From NCBI RefSeq assembly GCF_009914755.1, contig NC_060947.1: 64,000 nt of DNA, one strand, 5' to 3'. Positions within the stretch are counted from its first letter, which is position 1, and the number at the start of each line of letters is the position of its first letter. A program made the translations under genes and the position numbers. The stretch is from the human T2T-CHM13v2.0 reference genome, Homo sapiens. Shown here piece after piece: positions 7,771 through 15,779 of the stretch. A model generated the notes under the pieces. That model did not search any database and was not told where the DNA came from. It saw only the letters and a list, made by a program, of their open reading frames with translations.

Positions 7771-10700
7771 GTAGTTGACACCTGTCATTTCTGATCATTG
7801 TTCAGCTCCTTGTTATAGAAGAGTAGCGGTTAGAAGCATTGCCTTCTCAACTGAAAGGCATTTCAGGCTTAGCAAAAAGAAAGCTCACTCTGTATTTCCA
7901 AAAGAGTATTGTTGAGGGCAAGGCTGGAGGCAGAGAGACAGTTCAGCAGGATGATGCATCAATCCATCCTGTCATGAAAGCTTGCACTAGAAAAGACAGT
8001 ACAGCTTGCTGATTGTTAATAAAATCAATTTGGTGGCTGATTGCATTTGGGAGGTGTGAGAGAGGTTGCCTATCAGGTTTTGGTGAGGTTGTTAGACTAT
8101 AGTGGCATAAGAGAAGGCAACATTTGGAGCCTTCCTGGGGTATGGTTGATGTGCAGTCTAATCCATGAACATTCACACTTCTGTTCTCTATAAATCCTGC
8201 TCCATTTTCCAAATGGTTCCACACAGTTACCTCCTCCTTTAAGATCTCTTCCCTAACTATGTCATCTGTGAGAAAAGGCTCTCCTATCTGGACGGGTAGA
8301 GGAGTTTGCTTTCTGGGGCTTGTGTGACTGCTCTATTAGGGCGGGTTGGCACTTTGCTTGCCTTACTATGGTGTTAGGCCAAGAAATGGTACATGGTATA
8401 TGACCACTGATGTGTCTTCAAACTTGTATTTTTGTTCCAAATTTCAGAACACAGTGATGGTAGCAGCTCTCCTCAAGGAGAAAATAAAGGTGGAGATTCT
8501 TCCCAGGGGAATTTTGGAAAGGAGAACCTTCATGATGAACATGATGGGTATGAGCTCCCACCTCCCCATCTTCAGAAGGTAGATGAAAATGTGGAGGTGG
8601 GGGATGTCCACGAGGATCCCCAAATAAGAAAGTAAGTGACCAGGCAGGCTGGTTTGCACATAGCAGCCCCTGGGACTTTGTAATTCTTTCACTCTCTGTA
8701 GTCTTTTTTTCCTCTCCCTGAAAAACTGAAGAATGCTAGAAGTGAAGTAATGGCTGAGAAATCCTAATTGCAGACCTGGTTTTCAGTGAGTTGAGGGTGT
8801 ATGAAAAACTGTGTCACATTTCTATGCATTTCTATACATTTATAGACATATCTTTTTATCCATTTCCCTACAGCAACCCCTCTACCTTACAACCCGATAG
8901 TAGGAGTGTGAAATGCCATAGTGAATACCAAGATAGAATTCCTCCAGAGAGAGAAGTGGAGAAGAACACACAGAATGGAGACCCAGGGACCTGGTTCAAG
9001 GTCACAGTGAGTGTCCTGAGAAAATGCAAAAAATGTGCAGGAAAGGTGGGTCAGGGAGAGTTGTGTTAATCACACGTAGAAATACTAGATATTTTTCTGA
9101 GGACAGGGAAGTTAACATCTAAGCACAGGTTCAGAAAAACAATGTAAAGGGAACAGGCTGACTGCAAGAGGACCCAAGAGTCTGTCTAAACGCAAAGGTG
9201 GAAACTACTGCCAAGAAGATGTGGCAGCTCTCCACAAGATGCCTCATGGCTCAAGCTGAGTGTAGCAGTGTTGAGTTTCTGGAGTTCTTGTCAGAGGTGC
9301 AGGCTGGGTCTTCAATAGGTAGAATCTCCTAGCACCTTAAAAAAAAGATCATTTAGAACATCTGAATTTTATTATCTGAGAGTTATATTTGGAATAGAGA
9401 GAAAGGACAACTAGGAAACCCATGTCTGGCAAAAAAAAAAAAAAAAAAAAAAAGTTGAAATCATGTTAATGGTCCCTATCTTAGAAGTCTTTTAAAGCTC
9501 CATTAGAAGGTTAGAATAAAACACTTAGTTGGGTTATTTTCCAGACTTAATTCCATGTTGTCTCTCTTCTATCCTATCCCTTCTTTTCACCATTAGATTC
9601 CTTATGGGATAAAGTATGATAAGAGTTGGATAGTGAATTCAATCCAGAGCCATTGCAGTGTCCCCTTCACTCCAGTCGCTGTAAGAGAAGATGGTGAAGC
9701 CAGATGAGTAGGCACAAGGGAGGGGGAGACGCCTGACTCAGCAGGGGCCACTGACCTCTGACACTATTGCTCTTGCCTTTACTCCCTGTAGTTCCACTAC
9801 AACAAAAATCGGGCCCATTTCTTTATTCAGGATGCTAGTGCTGCCTGTGCATTAAAGAAAGTCAACTGCAAGATTCATGATGAGGAAAACCAAAAGGTAT
9901 ATGTCAACAACATTCCCTATATACAGTCTCTGGGAAAGAGGACAGGCCAGGGTCTAGTCATTGTCTTTTTTGAGATTGAGGTCCTCGTGCTCAACTTGCC
10001 TCACCTTCTTGCAGGTATTTGTTTTTGTCAATCTTTCTACTAAACCCCAGTCTATCCAGAAAATGTTGAAACCAAAAGAGATGGCATAGCTAAAGGTAAT
10101 ACAGACTCAAGGCACCACTTCTTCCCCCACCCCTATATTTCCCTGTCACCACTACCACCACCACCAGAGCCTCAGAGCTGCTCTCTTCATCTGTCTCTGC
10201 AGCTGACCCTGAACAAATGATATGATGTCTCCCAGCAAGCTCTTGATCTCCAGAGGCTCCGCTTTGACCCAGGTATGGCTGACAGCAGCAATTCTAGGGC
10301 AAGTAGGGGCAGAGCAGTCTGCCTGGAAAGGAGACTTATATGGACGGCAACTTTGGGAGGGTTGGTGCTGGTGCTGGTCCAGTCAGGCCCCTTACAGCCT
10401 TCTGATGCCCTTCTCTCGGCTTCCTGGAGACTTGGTGAAACATCATATTGATATAATCCTGAATCAAAGAAACTACATGGCTGCCACTCTGAAGATCATT
10501 GAAAGGAATTTCCCTGAGGTGAGGCCTTAGGCCCAGTGCTAGTATTTAATTAGAGGGGTGGAAGAAATGGAGTGAAAGGCAGATTTGTTTCCAAGGCTCG
10601 AGATAGTATCCGTCACTCTAACTGTTCTTACCTGATAGCTATTATCTTTGAACTTGTGCGACAACAAACTGTACCACCTGGATGGCCTGCCTGACATTAT

Positions 10701-12333
10701 AGAGAAGGCTCCCAAAGTCAAGACCCTGAATCTCTCCAAAAATAAGGTGAGAAGGGGGAACCAGATCAACTTTGGATGGAGGGTGGATGGCAGTACATAT
10801 CAGAATAATGGCAACAAGCAGGCAGAGGTACCTGTGGGTGACTGTGAGGACTGGGGGAATTCGGGACCCAGGGTCCCGGGTGTTTCTCTTTCCCTGGCCC
10901 TCCTTCTCCAGTTTCCTCCCCATCTTTCTTAGCTGAAGTCGGCTTGGGAGTTGGGCAAGGTGAAAGGGTTGAAGCTCGAAGAGCTATGGCTGGAAGGGAA
11001 CTCATTGTGCAGCACCTTCTCTGACCAGTCCGCCTATGTAAGGTCAGTGGCAAACCCTGTCACCCTTCCTGGGCACCTTTGCTCCCTGGGTGACTGAGCT
11101 GTGTCTGAAGGTGCCCTTCTGCAGGAAGAAGCAGCCTTGGTCCTCTGGGAGGACCACAGACCTCCCCTCCTACTCTCTCTCTCTCTCTCCTGTCTCTCTG
11201 TCACTCACTCATCTGTGGTTAGAGGTCTCCTTTCCTTCCTCTGACATGGTCCCCTTTTCACCTGCTCTGGTGTGTGTTTCCCGCCTGTCTCCACCAAGCC
11301 TCCTCCAGTGTGCCCTCTGTGAGTGTGCTCCAGGAAGTGGGGCTCCCCACCTCCCCAGGACCAGCAGTATTCAGATGCTGGTGCCCTGAACCGAGAAGAG
11401 TCCTTTAGTCCGGGACCTCATGCTGAGACAGGCCTTCCTGCCTCCATGCTGAGATGGGGCTTCCCTCCCCTGTCCCGAGAGGGGTTCTCCTTCTCTTGCT
11501 CCAAAAAGGTCCCCCCACCTGTCCTGGGCTGGCATAGGGGCTTCCCTGCCCCATACTGAGGGCTGGGGCCCCGGGTGGCTGCTGTCATGCCATCTCTTCC
11601 TCTGGCCCAATGCCAGGAGCTGGGCCCTCCTTGGGGAGAAACCTGGGTTTCCTACGTCAAGGGGCCAGAAGCGGGCCACGTTCCTGAGGCGGGAGTGGAA
11701 GGCAGAGGGCAGAGGAGGTTGAGGAGACAGAAGGACAGGCCTCTCAGGGCACTGCCCCACCTTCCCTCCTTCCCCACCTCACATCGTCCTGCCTGGGCCC
11801 TCAGAGGAGCCCTGGGTAGCCCGAGATGGGTAGCATTCCTCGGTCAAGGCGTCAGCACAGAGGGGCACAGGAGTCAGGGACCATCAGAAGAGAATGCAGT
11901 GGTCTGGAGAGGGGGTCCCCAGACTCTGAACCCCATGCTGAGCTGGGGCCTGACTCTTCACTCCTCCCGGGAGAAGGTCTCCTGTCCCCGTGGCTGCTCT
12001 GTTTCCCATGCCCAGCTCAGACTGAGCTCACACAGGTGAGGAAGGCTCCAGCTGCATCCAGTGGGCCCCAGCCCAACAGGTGCATGTTTTCCTTTCCTGC
12101 CTCAGTCCCCAGGGACAACCGGGAGCGATGAGGGAAAGGGCTGCAGCAGGGGAGCCCTTTTCTCCTCTATACCTCCCTGAACTCCACCTCCACAGTAGAG
12201 CATCTTTCCCTTCCCTTTGCTTTGCATCCTGTTTCTCCCTTGCGTCTCCTCTCCTATGTCTCACCCGTCTCTCCCTCCCCTACCTTCACCCCATTTCTGT
12301 TGTCATCACCCTGCCTTCCCCTTCCTGCCTCCT

Positions 12334-12458
12334 GAGCCCAGCCTCACTCACCTACCTATCCCAGCATCCTCAGCATCCCTAAGACCTGACCTGGTCTTGG
12401 CCAGGGGCAGGCCAGGCAGATTGACGGACAGCCAGTGGGGTAGCAGAGCCCTGGGCTC
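12334..12458 (+). promoter_or_regulatory. CTE-like RNA hairpin in the intron between the 110-nt and 37-nt exons
   Basis: CCCTAAGAC ... ATTGACGGA internal loop closed by CTG/CAG and CCTGGTCT/AGGCCAGG; basal GAGCCCAG/CTGGGCTC stem. Confidence 0.65.
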
Positions 12459-12599
12459 CCACTCCATTTCCTGCTCCCTGCATAGCCTTCCGTGGGGATT
12501 TGGACAAAGGGGAGGGAGGGAGGGGGAAGAAACCCTGGAGCTCCCAATGCTGCTTCTTGTGGCACTGGAGAAGAGAGTCGGGGCAATCTAGGTGGAAGC

Positions 12600-12672
12600 T
12601 AACCAGGAGGAAGGAGAGGGAGGAGAGTGAGAGGGGGAGAGGGAGGGGCAGGGGGAGGGAGAGGGAGAGAGG
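12600..12672 (+). repeat. GA-rich purine tract
   Basis: ggaggaaggagagggaggagagtgagagggggagagggagggggcagggggagggagagggagaga-type low-complexity run. Confidence 0.8.
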
Positions 12673-14454
12673 CTGTGCAACCCTGAATTGTCAATCACTT
12701 CATTCTATTTTTTGTTATGGACAGTATCATCCGGGAATATTTCCCCAAGTTGTTATGCCTGGTAAGTATTTACTGTCATCATTGTCTCTTACTCAAGTAC
12801 ATGACCTCCATGCCTGCCCTCAAGTCCTTTGGCTCTTGCCTGGATTACATGTTTGTATCCAGCCCTCATCCATTTTAGAGGCATAGATTCCTGAAAAAGA
12901 CAAGAATATTCTCCCTGGAATAAAATGTCCATAAACACACACACGCACCCACACTCACTAATTCACACAAAAGTTGCATCTAATAATAGATGCTTCCAAG
13001 ACCCACTGTTGAAGACTCCATCTGCTGTCTTGCTGATAGAATTTTGAGGGGGCCATTTCATGCCTCACCTCTGACCCTTTTTCCCTCCAGGCCTGTTCAT
13101 CTCCTTACTCATCCAGCTCTACCTCCCTGGTATGCACTGCTGACTGCCTCTTTCCTTTCTCAGGATGGCCAGGAGTTAGCATCTCCAATTATAATTGGCA
13201 TTGAAGCCCCTGAGATAATAAAACCTTGTAAGGTAAGGAGGGACCAGATTTCAGATACTGTAAGGGACGTTTTTTAAACCACATAGTTTCAAGATGTCTT
13301 TTGATTCCAGGAAAGCTATAAAGGATCTGAGACCATAAAGAGTCTGGTGCTTCAGTTCCTGCTTCAGTAAGTACCCCAGAATCCTGAGGCTGTGGAAGGC
13401 TGAGACAAGACAGGCCACCCAAGCAAATGTCTATTCATGGATTTAGGAAGTCTTCAAGTCTCCTTTGGGGCCCAGGCCACAGAGATAGCCTTTCCCCACT
13501 GCTCTTTCACAGGTATTACTTGATCTATGACTCTGAAGATCGAACGGGTCTCCTCAGTGTTTACCATGACAAGGCCTGCTTCTCCCTGACCATTACCCTC
13601 AACCCTGAGGACCCAGAACCGTGAGTATCACGGCTCTGACTCTGGTCTGGGGCCATGTGGTCCCCAGCAAAGGCCAGTTCCTGGAAATGTCTGCACTAGC
13701 TGGACCACCCACTCCTGTTCCTCTTCTTCTCCTAGGAGCAGCTTGGAAAAATACTTCAAGGATAGCAGGAATATAAAGAATATCAAGGACCCTTGTGAGT
13801 GTGTGATGGGTGAAGATCAGCATGGGAAATGGGGTGGAGAGTCAATAATAGGGTACAGGGTACAGGGTGTGGCAGCCCTCAATGCTTCTCTTTCTCACAC
13901 AGGCCTGAGGATTCAGCTGCTGAAGCACACAAAACGTGAGATTGTGGACTCCCTCAGTGTATTGCCCAGAACTCAGCATGACCTTAACTCCTATGTGGTA
14001 GACTTGTGCATCCAAACGGTGAGCACCTGCTTCCTCCCTCAGTCAGGCCCAGAGAGCTGAAGTAGGTAGGAAGTAGGTAGGTGGGTAGGAGGATCATGAA
14101 GGCTCTAGTTTTTTCTTCTTCCCTTTCAGGAAAGGATGCTCGTCTTTTCTGTCAATGGAGTATTTAAGGAAGGTGAGTGTCTATAGATTCTTCTCTCCAG
14201 ATCACTCATTACTCCCTTCCCCAGGCTGGGCTTACTCCAAGAACTCTCTCAGCTTCCCAAGTTGCTCTTCTCCCCTTCCCTTGCATTCTTCCTCTCCGTT
14301 TGTGTTCTTCCTCTCCTGGCAACTTTCTGTTATCTTTGTGTTCTTTCCTTTTTGTTCCCTTCCCTTTGTGTTCTTCCTCTCCCCCAATTTTGTTCCCAAA
14401 CATCATTACTTCCTGACCTACATCCATGCCTGTCTGCACCTGCACCACTCAGGC

Positions 14455-14650
14455 GTTAGGGACACAGCCTGTAGAGTTTGATGGCTCTCATCCCAGGTTG
14501 TTACTTTGCGAACTTGGGACATTGTCCTGTTACCTAACCCCTCAGTTTCCTCATTTGCAAAATGGGGTTGGTAAGCTCATCTCTTGGGTGACTGTGTAAA
14601 ATGAATCAAGCGAACTCATGTTTGTCAAGAGACCTGACACATGTTAGGGG
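14455..14650 (+). mobile_element. MIR fragment
   Basis: MIR core cctcagtttcctcatttgcaaaatgggg. Confidence 0.7.
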
Positions 14651-15779
14651 GTTCTATCCCTGGGTGCCGCTTGTTCCTATTTTTGCCCTCTCAGTCCCTG
14701 AAACTCCCTCCTGACTCTCACTGAAAAGTTGTCCCAGCCTGGCTCCCTTCAGGGTGCCAAAAGATTATCTCCCTGACTGGAGAACCCTGTATGAATGTGT
14801 AAAGCATGTGCAACTGTAAGGAGGTATCATTGTTTGTTGTTTCTAAAGTGGAAAGAGAGTCTCCAGGTTCTGTTCTTGCCTTCACCCGAACCTTCATCTT
14901 GACTTCTGTCGGCAATTCCAAGTAAGTGCTGTGCTGTGGGTGGGAGCACCCATCCTGTCCTGGAGCCAATGGTGTGGTAATGTGGTGGTGCAGTCCTCGG
15001 GATGTTCTCAGTACCATAGAAAGCCAACTGGTAGATCCAAGGAGAGGTCTAGATTATGAGAATACCAGATTCTCTTTTTGGCCACAATAGTTACTAATTA
15101 GCTGTGTATCTTTTTGTCCAGTTGTAAGATTTCTCTGTGAAACAGTCCTTTTCTGAAAATGGGATGTCTACTTCTTTTGTAAAGTGTAAATGCATTGGGG
15201 TTAAATCTACAAATCTAAGGAAACTGGTAGGCAATCTCTCCAAAAGTGGACTCTGCAGCAGGGGTAAAGCCTACCAGCCAAGGAATCCGAAAGGTGGGCA
15301 GAGCAGGGGCTTGGAAGGAATCTGGTTCCTCAGTGGCAGTGGAAGCAGGATCATTGTTGAAAGTGTGGGGTTGTCCATTTTTCCAGTTGTCTGAGAGCTT
15401 GTCTTTCCTTCAGTCTGTATATTGTGAATGACAAGCTGATTGTGAGGAATGCCAGCACGAAGGAGACCCAGAGTGCCTTCTCCATCCCAGTGCCTGCACC
15501 CTCCTCCAGCTCCTTGCCTACCCTCTCCCAGAAGCAGCAGGAAATGGTGGAGACTGTCTCCACCCAGTCTGGGATGAAACTTGAGCAGTCTCAGAAGTGA
15601 GTGCTGGGAGTCTTTCAGGATAGATGTGAGCTGGGAAGAGTGGGGAGTGAAAAATGGAAACTCTCAGTTAATTTGTAAAAATAACTATTTAGATGTGGTG
15701 CTTCCAAAAATGAGTGGCCTCATAAAGTATATATATTAATTGATTGTGATAAAGAAATTAATTTTTAAACAATATAGCG

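What the first reader, a model, noticed from the sequence alone, without database searches (positions are those of the whole stretch)
11041..11097. Intron read-through encodes an 18-aa tail resembling the short NXF1 isoform
If the intron after the 110-nt exon is retained, the frame continues [18 protein letters not shown] then TGA (11095-11097). As I recall it, the NXF1 intron-10-retained isoform ends RSVVACVSPPGDLHPLGG: same length, 9 of 18 identical. Such conservation in intronic sequence of an old paralog implies the X-linked NXF lineage also made a short intron-retained protein. In this copy the upstream stops would block it.
Basis: partly seen in the sequence, partly recalled or inferred. 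Interest (0 to 1): 0.7.

Follow-up and report, generated by a model that had tools for sequence, protein, structure and literature searches.

The report
Fossil of the short-NXF1 tail
The start of this NXF4 pseudogene intron still spells a tail like that of the short NXF1 protein, but it looks like an inherited leftover of gene duplication and not a sign that the X-linked copies make such a protein.

Summary
In the frame of the 110-nt exon, window 11041-11097 reads [18 protein letters not shown] + TGA. The human NXF1 locus reads RSVVACVSPPGDLHPLGG + TGA at the same place. That is 9/18 residues and 43/57 bases identical, with no indel and the same stop.

The inference is only partly supported. 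The whole 1682-nt intron is collinear with NXF1 intron 10 at 60-63% identity, so intronic likeness by itself is just common descent. The first 57 nt are better kept than the intron average. They are the best of 13 intron starts, and neutral simulation keeps the 18 codons plus stop in only 1-4% of runs. But the changes are not coding-like: they fall 6/6/2 by codon position with dN/dS about 2.9, against 9/4/15 and 0.10 in the adjoining exon.

The NXF1-binding loop of the export element (CTE) is altered at 5 of 12 bases in all X-linked copies. NXF3 and several mammals have lost the frame or the stop. NXF4 has upstream stops.

Verdict: an inherited relic of the NXF1 arrangement, perhaps held by splicing signals. 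Low interest.

The parts
10933..11042 (+). 110-nt NXF4 exon, homologous to NXF1 exon 10 (end of the leucine-rich-repeat region)
   Evidence: It matches NXF1 gene positions 10122-10231 at 82/110 bases with no gap. Differences fall 9/4/15 by codon position and dN/dS is 0.10.
11043..11048 (+). Donor site GTCAGT, with C at intron position +3
   Evidence: It is identical in NXF1, NXF4 and the four other X-linked loci. It is the only GTC donor among the 13 donors compared in each gene. That C at +3 is a weak, rare donor is recalled knowledge.
11041..11094 (+). 18 read-through codons, [18 protein letters not shown]
   Evidence: Against the NXF1 tail, 9/18 residues and 40/54 bases are identical.
11095..11097 (+). 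In-frame TGA at the same place as the stop of the short NXF1 isoform
   Evidence: The surrounding CTGAGCT is identical in NXF1 and NXF4, and the first alignment gap comes right after it.
11071..11090 (+). Two G triplets, at intron +29-31 and +46-48, inside CCTGGG / CCCTGGG. They supply the conserved Pro-Gly and Leu-Gly codons and may be intronic splicing enhancers (inferred).
   Evidence: Both are kept in NXF1 and NXF4/2/2B/5, and one is kept in NXF3. The enhancer role is inferred from recalled literature and was not tested.
11043..12724 (+). Whole intron (1682 nt), collinear homologue of NXF1 intron 10 (1801 nt)
   Evidence: blastn aligns 1-1496 with 1-1534 at 61.7%, E 1.65e-99. The global alignment has 1128/1573 identical non-gap columns and 337 gap columns, z = 34.5 against shuffles. 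MAFFT gives 919/1520.
11789..11883 (+). Decayed homologue of the 94-nt NXF1 CTE region
   Evidence: It aligns to NXF1 intron positions 775-868 at 63/93 identical. The inner loop AGAGAC/AAGACA reads CGAGAT/CAGAGG here, the NXF1-like fold is not recovered, and the energy z-score is -0.24. There is no AAGACA anywhere in the NXF4 intron.
12725..12761 (+). 37-nt exon homologous to NXF1 exon 11; it supplies the normal continuation (S)IIREYFPKLLCL
   Evidence: 25/37 identical.
10204..10212 (+). Nearest upstream in-frame stops of the spliced NXF4 transcript (TGA at 10204-10206 and at 10210-10212)
   Evidence: 9 in-frame stops between 8909 and 10212.

Best explanation
Window 11041-11097 is the first stretch of the NXF4 counterpart of NXF1 intron 10. 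Its likeness to the 18-residue tail of the short NXF1 isoform is inherited.

The X-linked NXF genes arose by DNA-level duplication of an NXF1-like gene. That gene already had the retained-intron arrangement: an unusual GTCAGT donor, an 18-codon in-frame extension ending in TGA, and a constitutive transport element (CTE) about 800 nt into the intron.

Since then the whole intron has drifted to about 60% identity but stays collinear. The CTE's NXF1-binding loop has decayed. The first ~58 nt have changed more slowly than the rest, but with no regard to codon position. So whatever holds them is at the DNA/RNA level. The most likely cause is splicing signals, namely the G triplets that help an intrinsically weak donor. 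It is not selection on the encoded peptide.

In NXF4, a transcribed pseudogene with upstream stops, nothing is translated from it.

Shown: homology, collinearity, loss of the CTE loop, the non-coding substitution pattern, loss of frame in NXF3, and the upstream stops. Inferred: that the ancestor made a short isoform, and that splicing signals explain the slower change.
For: - **Positional homology.** The tail has the same length and the same TGA as in NXF1.
- **Whole-intron homology.** blastn aligns 1-1496 with 1-1534 at 61.7%, E 1.65e-99. The global alignment scores z = 34.5 against shuffles, and MAFFT gives 60.5%. The equal-sized neighbouring introns with the strongest z-scores (3 of the 10 other intron pairs) also align, at 69-76% of non-gap columns, and exons are 63-75% identical.
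- **Substitution pattern.** The tail shows differences of 6/6/2 by codon position, 9/18 residues replaced and dN/dS 2.9 (2.0-2.7 with NXF2 or NXF5 in place of NXF4). The adjoining exon shows 9/4/15, 9/36 and 0.10. Fisher p = 0.020.
- **CTE.** NXF1 intron positions 775-868 fold with an inner loop at nt 32-37 and 68-73 (AGAGAC/AAGACA), as the Figure 1 legend of PMC4338338 states. That paper reports no change in this loop across 36 mammals. All five X-linked copies read CGAGAT/CAGAGG there. AAGACA is the NXF1-binding motif, and mutating it disrupts binding (PMC4174252 passages; PMC4330393 passage). The intron-10 mRNA is not exported without a working CTE (PMC5170612 discussion passage).
- **Frame lost elsewhere.** NXF3 reads KSVVPSVTTWDPDLCLIAPFCRRRQH* because of a 19-nt gap.
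- **Other mammals.** Of 12 X-linked read-through models from other species, 3 end after 18 residues (P0003, P0004, P0005). Six lose the stop or frame (P0002, P0019, P0033, P0034, P0037, and P0039, which leaves the tail after 16 residues). Two read 18 residues and then continue (P0006, P0007). One (P0045) is normally spliced.
- **Upstream stops in NXF4**.
- **No human X-linked read-through protein** among the 79 database hits, while human NXF1 read-through forms were found (P0082, P0083).
Against: - The start of this intron is better kept than background. It has 43/57 identical against an intron-wide 60-63%: binomial p = 0.013-0.028, or 0.05-0.09 once the GTCAGT is left out.
- Only 6% of 57-column windows in the intron reach 43 identities, and only one other place does so without a gap.
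- It ranks first of 13 intron starts.
- A neutral simulation with intron-wide rates keeps '18 codons + same stop' in only 1-4% of runs. Some constraint is therefore likely, and I cannot show that it is splicing and not a short protein.
- Tails of X-linked genes in lemur (P0006, RSVVTSVTLPGPLHPLGG) are 13/18 identical to the human NXF1 tail. The frame and stop survive in several orders.
- The codon-position test rests on only 14 differences.
- NXF4 is a pseudogene, so its own recent changes are uninformative (NXF2 and NXF5 give the same picture).
- No RNA-seq data could be examined.
Confidence: 0.68

Rival explanations
1. The X-linked NXF genes with an intact frame (NXF2, NXF2B, NXF5) still make, or were long selected to make, a short protein ending in this tail by retaining the intron, as NXF1 does. 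NXF4 carries the same sequence as a dead copy.
For: - The same 18 codons plus TGA stand in the NXF2, NXF2B and NXF5 loci.
- This is the best-kept intron start of 13 and has no indel.
- Neutral simulation keeps the frame and stop in only 1-4% of runs.
- The unusual GTCAGT donor is kept in all copies, and the R-S-V start in most mammalian models implies C at +3 there too.
- The 18-residue frame ends at the same place in tamarin P0003, lemur P0005 and the unnamed record P0004.
- Short NXF1 has a known cofactor role (PMC5170612 abstract).
Against: - The substitution pattern is not coding-like, while the adjoining exon's is (Fisher p = 0.02).
- The CTE inner loop is changed at 5 of 12 bases and the AAGACA motif is lost at the homologous place in all X-linked copies.
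- NXF3 lost the frame.
- The stop or frame is lost in tarsier, elephant, pangolin, orangutan and one pig model.
- NXF2/2B/5/4 are 95-100% identical here, so they count as one lineage.
- No human X-linked read-through protein is among the 79 hits.
- No paper found reports such an isoform (listings read; passages of PMC3652825, PMC12111617 and PMC12234887 read).
Confidence: 0.12
2. Pure neutral relic. The first 57 nt are under no constraint at all, and their higher identity, lack of indels and kept stop are luck within a slowly evolving, still alignable intron.
For: - The whole intron is alignable.
- Other islands are as well kept: NXF4 intron positions 527-591 at 45/57 ungapped and about 916-975 at 48/59.
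- With a gap-generous alignment the background identity is 71.7%, and the binomial p for 43/57 is then 0.32.
- Once the donor hexamer is left out, p = 0.05-0.09.
- There is no significant RNA fold at the donor: z = -0.98, -0.81, -1.46 and 0.01.
Against: - It ranks first of 13 intron starts on both ungapped and gapped counts and is the only one without a gap.
- Simulation gives 1-4%.
- Third codon positions, which are simply every third base, are kept at 16/18 against 12/18 for each of the other two positions, so the conservation is patchy and centred on the CCTGGG motifs.
Confidence: 0.18

Closest known systems
NXF1 (TAP) intron 10 with its CTE, and the 356-aa short NXF1 isoform (Li et al. 2006, recalled; PMC5170612 and PMC4338338, passages and sections read)
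   Same: - It follows the homologous 110-nt exon.
- It has the same GTCAGT donor.
- It has the same 18-codon read-through ending in TGA, with 9/18 residues and 43/57 bases identical.
- The whole intron is collinear, including the stretch homologous to the CTE.
   Different: - The CTE inner loop is changed at 5 of 12 bases and the AAGACA motif is gone.
- The upstream frame of NXF4 is broken.
- There is no evidence of a retained-intron mRNA or protein.
- The tail shows no protein-level constraint.
NXF4 transcribed pseudogene and the X-linked NXF cluster NXF2/NXF2B/NXF5/NXF3 (RefSeq NR_002216.1 in the hub annotation; PMC3652825, passages read)
   Same: The finding lies in the annotated NXF4 intron between exons 10933-11042 and 12725-12761. 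The same sequence stands in the paralogs at 95-96% identity.
   Different: I found nothing in print about this intron start in the X-linked genes. NXF5's described isoforms arise by other splicing events (PMC12111617 passage).
Detained or retained introns with weak splice sites, regulated by bound factors (for example SRSF3 on Nxf1 intron 10; PMC5963917, passages read)
   Same: An unusual donor and conserved intron-proximal sequence, which would fit regulated or assisted splicing.
   Different: No retention data for the X-linked genes. The splicing-signal role of the G triplets is inferred only.

Membership tests
NXF1-type retained intron 10 / short-NXF isoform system | The intron lies after the exon homologous to NXF1 exon 10 and is homologous to intron 10 along its length | tested here: met
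   Exon mapping. The introns are collinear: 61.7% over about 1500 nt, E 1.65e-99, z = 34.5.
NXF1-type retained intron 10 / short-NXF isoform system | Unusual donor GTCAGT shared with NXF1 | tested here: met
   It is identical in all six human loci and is the only GTC donor among the 13 donors compared per gene.
NXF1-type retained intron 10 / short-NXF isoform system | In-frame read-through of 18 codons ending at a stop | tested here: met
   Met in NXF4 and in the NXF2, NXF2B and NXF5 loci. Not met in the NXF3 locus, which reads 26 unrelated residues.
NXF1-type retained intron 10 / short-NXF isoform system | Functional CTE: a stem-loop with the invariant inner loop AGAGAC/AAGACA that binds NXF1 | tested here: not met
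   The homologous place (window 11789-11883) reads CGAGAT/CAGAGG, the NXF1-like fold is not recovered, and there is no AAGACA in the NXF4 intron. Function itself was not assayed.
NXF1-type retained intron 10 / short-NXF isoform system | Open upstream reading frame, so that the tail can be translated | tested here: not met
   The spliced upstream exons of NXF4 hold 9 in-frame stops. PMC3652825 says NXF4 lacks an ORF. The frame is intact in NXF2 and NXF5, which are named protein-coding in the database hits.
NXF1-type retained intron 10 / short-NXF isoform system | Protein-level purifying selection on the tail | tested here: not met
   Differences fall 6/6/2 by codon position and dN/dS is 2.0-2.9, against 0.10-0.15 in the exon. 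Fisher p = 0.02. The sample is small, 14 differences.
NXF1-type retained intron 10 / short-NXF isoform system | Intron-retaining mRNA in the cytoplasm and a detectable short protein | not testable with these tools
   No RNA-seq or proteome access. The only indirect point is that no human X-linked read-through protein is among the 79 hits, while NXF1 read-through forms are.

The most novel reading that the evidence does not exclude
NXF2, NXF2B and NXF5 carry the same 57 nt behind an intact frame. They may still make a short protein truncated after the leucine-rich repeats by retaining this intron in testis or brain, exported by a route that needs no canonical CTE. The above-average conservation of the intron start would then reflect that isoform, an X-linked counterpart of the short NXF1 cofactor.
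Probability: 0.1. Interest if true: 0.55.

Novelty: new member of a known kind. Interest (0 to 1): 0.22.

Why it matters
If the relic reading holds, the finding is a tidy example of how an alternative-isoform arrangement (weak donor, in-frame tail, export element) decays unevenly after gene duplication. The export element's binding loop went first, while the donor and the read-through frame linger. That is of modest interest to people who work on NXF1 autoregulation and on the Xq22 NXF cluster. It would matter more only if NXF2 or NXF5 proved to make a short isoform, because short NXF1 acts as a cofactor of NXF1 in neurons and NXF5 is a candidate intellectual-disability gene.

Tried and rejected
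- **Rfam scans.** I scanned the NXF4 intron region (14 matches, all far below their gathering scores, E 0.5-10) and NXF1 intron 10 (3 matches below gathering). No Rfam model picked up even the known NXF1 CTE, so Rfam could not be used to ask about a CTE here.
- **A conserved hairpin at the donor.** I tested for one that might control splice-site access. The folds of the NXF4, NXF1, NXF2 and NXF3 donor regions differ from each other and are not significant (z = -0.98, -0.81, -1.46, 0.01). Rejected.
- **A chromosome-14 protein hit (L012, E 7.3).** It has no nucleotide similarity to the NXF1 gene. Chance.
- **The single AAGACA in the NXF2/2B/5 introns (positions 685-691).** It arises from one G>A change in a purine-rich stretch and does not sit in a CTE-like internal loop in minimum-energy folds. 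Not taken as a CTE.
- **Other-strand and other-frame ORFs over the site.** These are short stop-to-stop frames with nothing to support them.
- **Literature searches.** I looked for retention of this intron in X-linked NXF genes and found nothing relevant. One search was too loose to be useful. Work by the Mamon group on nxf1 'cassette' introns, which I recall, was not in the library.
- **Nucleotide sequences of other mammals.** These could not be fetched, so cross-species tests rest on protein models only. Those models are an ascertained sample, since the search favours tails that resemble the query.

Full report
**1. The observation.** Window 10933-11097, read in the frame of the annotated 110-nt NXF4 exon, gives ...[22 protein letters not shown] and then TGA at 11095-11097. 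The arginine codon AG|G spans the exon end at 11042, and the intron begins GTCAGT. The other two frames hold stops. The window's own genome could be searched. A protein search with this 54-residue read-through found the NXF1 locus on contig C11 (62789721-62789879, minus strand), aligned over residues 1-53 without a gap, E 1.3e-14. Reading that DNA gives ...STYI RSVVACVSPPGDLHPLGG and then TGA. A 356-aa database protein (P0083) ends in those 18 residues. PMC5170612 (passages read) describes a 356-residue short Nxf1 with 18 novel C-terminal residues coded by intron 10. Identity is 9/18 residues and 43/57 bases, with no indel and the same stop codon at the same place.

**2. The paralogs.** A DNA search of the genome found three further X-linked copies at 96% identity and one at 67%. 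I take these to be NXF2 (L003, +), NXF2B (L002, -), NXF5 (L004, -) and NXF3 (L005, -). The labels rest on position and orientation, compared with the account in PMC3652825 (passages), and are inferred, not read from an annotation. The first three read [18 protein letters not shown] and share the GTCAGT donor. The NXF3 locus has the donor but a 19-nt gap, and reads KSVVPSVTTWDPDLCLIAPFCRRRQH*. Across the intron, NXF4 is 95.2% identical to NXF2, NXF2B and NXF5; NXF2 and NXF2B are identical to each other and 99.4% identical to NXF5. For questions of selection these four copies therefore count as one lineage.

**3. Is the likeness more than background?** I fetched the NXF1 gene and mapped the NXF4 exons onto it.
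- NXF1 intron 10 comes out at 1801 nt, as in PMC4338338 (paper).
- The whole 1682-nt NXF4 intron is collinear with it. blastn aligns 1-1496 with 1-1534 at 61.7%, E 1.65e-99. A global alignment gives 1128 identical of 1573 non-gap columns plus 337 gap columns, with z = 34.5 against shuffles. A six-sequence MAFFT alignment gives 919/1520 = 60.5%.
- Exons are 63-75% identical, and the 110-nt exon is 82/110.

So intronic likeness between these paralogs is the rule, and 75% is exon-like, not exceptional. Even so, the first 57 nt stand above the intron average:
- Binomial p = 0.013-0.028 against 60.5-62.6%, but 0.32 against the gap-generous 71.7%. With the donor hexamer left out, p = 0.05-0.09.
- About 6% of 57-column windows reach 43 identities, and only one other place (intron positions 527-591) does so without a gap.
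- Among 13 homologous intron starts this one is the best. Ungapped it has 43/57 against 19-36. Gapped it has 43/57 with no gap, against 27-41 with 1-4 gap events.
- A neutral simulation with intron-wide substitution and gap rates keeps '18 codons and the same stop' in 1-4% of runs.

I conclude that the start of the intron has changed more slowly than its surroundings, at modest significance.

**4. Is the constraint on a peptide?** The adjoining exon gives an internal control at the same base identity.
- Exon: 28 differences, falling 9/4/15 by codon position; 9 of 36 residues replaced; dN/dS 0.10.
- Tail: 14 differences, falling 6/6/2; 9 of 18 residues replaced; nominal dN/dS 2.9. With NXF2 or NXF5 in place of NXF4 it is 2.0-2.7.
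- The contrast in third-position share gives Fisher p = 0.020.

The first three residues, R-S-V, are simply the donor site AG|GTCAGT read as codons. The conserved Pro-Gly and Leu-Gly are the repeated CCTGGG / CCCTGGG. So the pattern is that of conserved nucleotides, not of a conserved peptide. The sample is small.

**5. The export element.** In NXF1 the retained-intron mRNA reaches the cytoplasm through a CTE in intron 10, and without a working CTE it is not exported (PMC5170612 passages).
- NXF1 intron positions 775-868 fold into a stem-loop whose inner loop is nt 32-37 AGAGAC and nt 68-73 AAGACA. These are exactly the loop positions given in the Figure 1 legend of PMC4338338, which reports no change in this loop in 36 mammals.
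- AAGACA is the NXF1-binding motif, and mutating it disrupts binding (PMC4174252 passages; PMC4330393 passage).
- At the homologous place (window 11789-11883; 63/93 identical) all five X-linked copies read CGAGAT / CAGAGG, that is 5 of 12 loop bases changed. The GGTAAG next to the loop is GGTAGC. The NXF1-like fold is not recovered, and the folding energy is no better than shuffles, z = -0.24.
- The NXF4 intron has no AAGACA at all. NXF2/2B/5 have one, about 100 nt upstream, made by a single G>A and not in a CTE-like loop.

The element was thus inherited and has since decayed. Function was not assayed.

**6. Other species (protein models only; an ascertained sample).** The search with the NXF4 read-through returned 79 proteins, and I fetched 16 of them: 15 from other species and one human (P0009). 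Of these 16, 12 are X-linked-type models from other species that read into the intron.
- Three end after 18 residues: tamarin P0003 RSVATPVARPGLLCSLHD, lemur P0005 RSVETSVTFPGPLRPLGG, and the unnamed record P0004 RLVRTTVTLPGDLLPLGA.
- Two read 18 residues and then continue (lemur P0006, pig P0007).
- Six lose the stop or frame: tarsier P0002, orangutan P0019, pig P0033, elephant P0034, pangolin P0037, and elephant P0039, which leaves the tail after 16 residues.
- One, elephant P0045, is normally spliced.
- The other four fetched models (P0009, P0063, P0067, P0068) do not read into the intron.
- Lemur P0006 (RSVVTSVTLPGPLHPLGG) is 13/18 identical to human NXF1, which fits a near-identical ancestor.

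The search with the NXF1 read-through returned 214 proteins, of which 120 were listed and 30 fetched.
- Of 23 mammal-type NXF1 read-through forms, 16 end after 18 residues, most as RSVVASVSPPGD[LI]HPLGG.
- Seven do not. Among them is mouse isoform 2 (P0104, 418 aa), which leaves the frame at residue 16.
- Bird forms share only RSV.ALG.

So even in NXF1 the last residues and the stop are not fixed, and the X-linked tails are kept less often. No human NXF2, NXF5 or NXF4 read-through protein appeared among the 79 hits, whereas human NXF1 read-through forms did (P0082, P0083). This is weak negative evidence.

**7. NXF4 itself.** The annotated upstream exons, spliced and read in this frame, hold 9 stops, the nearest at 10210-10212. 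The exons 10015-10095 and 10203-10518 have stops in every frame. The annotated transcript removes this intron. Nothing can be translated from the tail here.

**8. Most likely explanation.** The site is a molecular fossil. The X-linked NXF genes were copied, introns included, from an NXF1-like gene that already had the retained-intron arrangement. The CTE is shared by fish and mammal NXF1 (PMC4338338), so it predates the copy. In the X-linked lineage the export element's binding loop decayed, NXF3 lost the frame, and several mammals lost the stop. The unusual donor and the next ~50 nt changed slowly. Because the changes ignore codon position, I attribute the slower change to RNA-level signals. 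The most plausible are the G triplets at +29-31 and +46-48, which would assist a donor with C at +3. That reading rests on recalled literature on G-triplet intronic enhancers and donor consensus, and it was not tested here. SRSF3 sites are known to lie somewhere in Nxf1 intron 10 (PMC5963917 passages).

Rivals:
- A short X-linked isoform that is still made or was long selected for (about 0.12).
- Pure luck without any constraint (about 0.18).

**9. Comparison with what is known, and novelty.** The thing works like, and descends from, NXF1 intron 10. As a member of that system it meets the positional, donor and read-through features. It fails the CTE, the open upstream frame and the peptide-constraint features. 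Expression could not be tested. I found no paper that mentions this tail in X-linked NXF genes (searches; passages of PMC3652825, PMC12111617 and PMC12234887 read). Supplements were not consulted. It is a new, minor member of a known kind. Interest is low: it is a correct and careful observation with an ordinary explanation.

Noticed in passing
L005 (NXF3 locus by position) against window 11043-12724: The NXF3 intron is a mosaic. It is 93-97% identical to NXF4 from intron position ~154 to ~1490, but only ~67-75% identical in the first ~150 nt and in the 110-nt exon. This looks like a gene-conversion tract. Its left border lies near the (CT)n run at window ~11180-11200.
   Followed up: partly
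L002/L003/L004 against the window intron: The NXF2B and NXF5 loci are 99.4% identical over 1612 intron bases, and NXF4 is 95.2% identical to both. Yet PMC3652825 places the split of the X-linked genes before the human-mouse divergence. This points to concerted evolution in the Xq22 NXF cluster.
   Followed up: no
window ~11569-11633 and ~11958-12017: Two islands inside the intron are as well kept against NXF1 intron 10 as the intron start: 45/57 ungapped and 48/59. The second lies just downstream of the CTE homologue. Their function is unknown.
   Followed up: no
window 10933-11042 against NXF1 exon 10: The synonymous difference in the exon (pS 0.60-0.67 on about 24 sites) is larger than the intron-wide mismatch of 0.37-0.40. 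The numbers are small and this is unexplained.
   Followed up: no
P0104 (mouse NXF1 isoform 2) and P0037 (pangolin X-linked model): The mouse NXF1 read-through leaves the human tail at residue 16 (..HPWEAELMHPDQ..) and runs on to 418 aa. A pangolin X-linked model shows the same ..LPWEPERP switch. This fits a recurrent 1-nt loss in the C run before CTGGG (inferred from the protein sequences only).
   Followed up: no
P0007 (pig) and P0039 (elephant): These gene models join the intron-coded tail directly to exon-12-like sequence (DG.EL.PP...), skipping the 37-nt exon. This is either an alternative donor just before the stop or an annotation artefact.
   Followed up: no
L002/L003 intron position 691; L004 position 685: NXF2, NXF2B and NXF5 have one AAGACA created by a single G>A relative to NXF4, NXF3 and NXF1. 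It lies about 100 nt upstream of the CTE homologue and is not in a CTE-like internal loop in minimum-energy folds.
   Followed up: partly
window 13903-15596: The 1694-nt 'exon' of the NXF4 transcript aligns to NXF1 gene stretches that hold both exons and introns: 63% over 390 nt and 59% over 850 nt. So the pseudogene transcript retains several ancestral introns.
   Followed up: no
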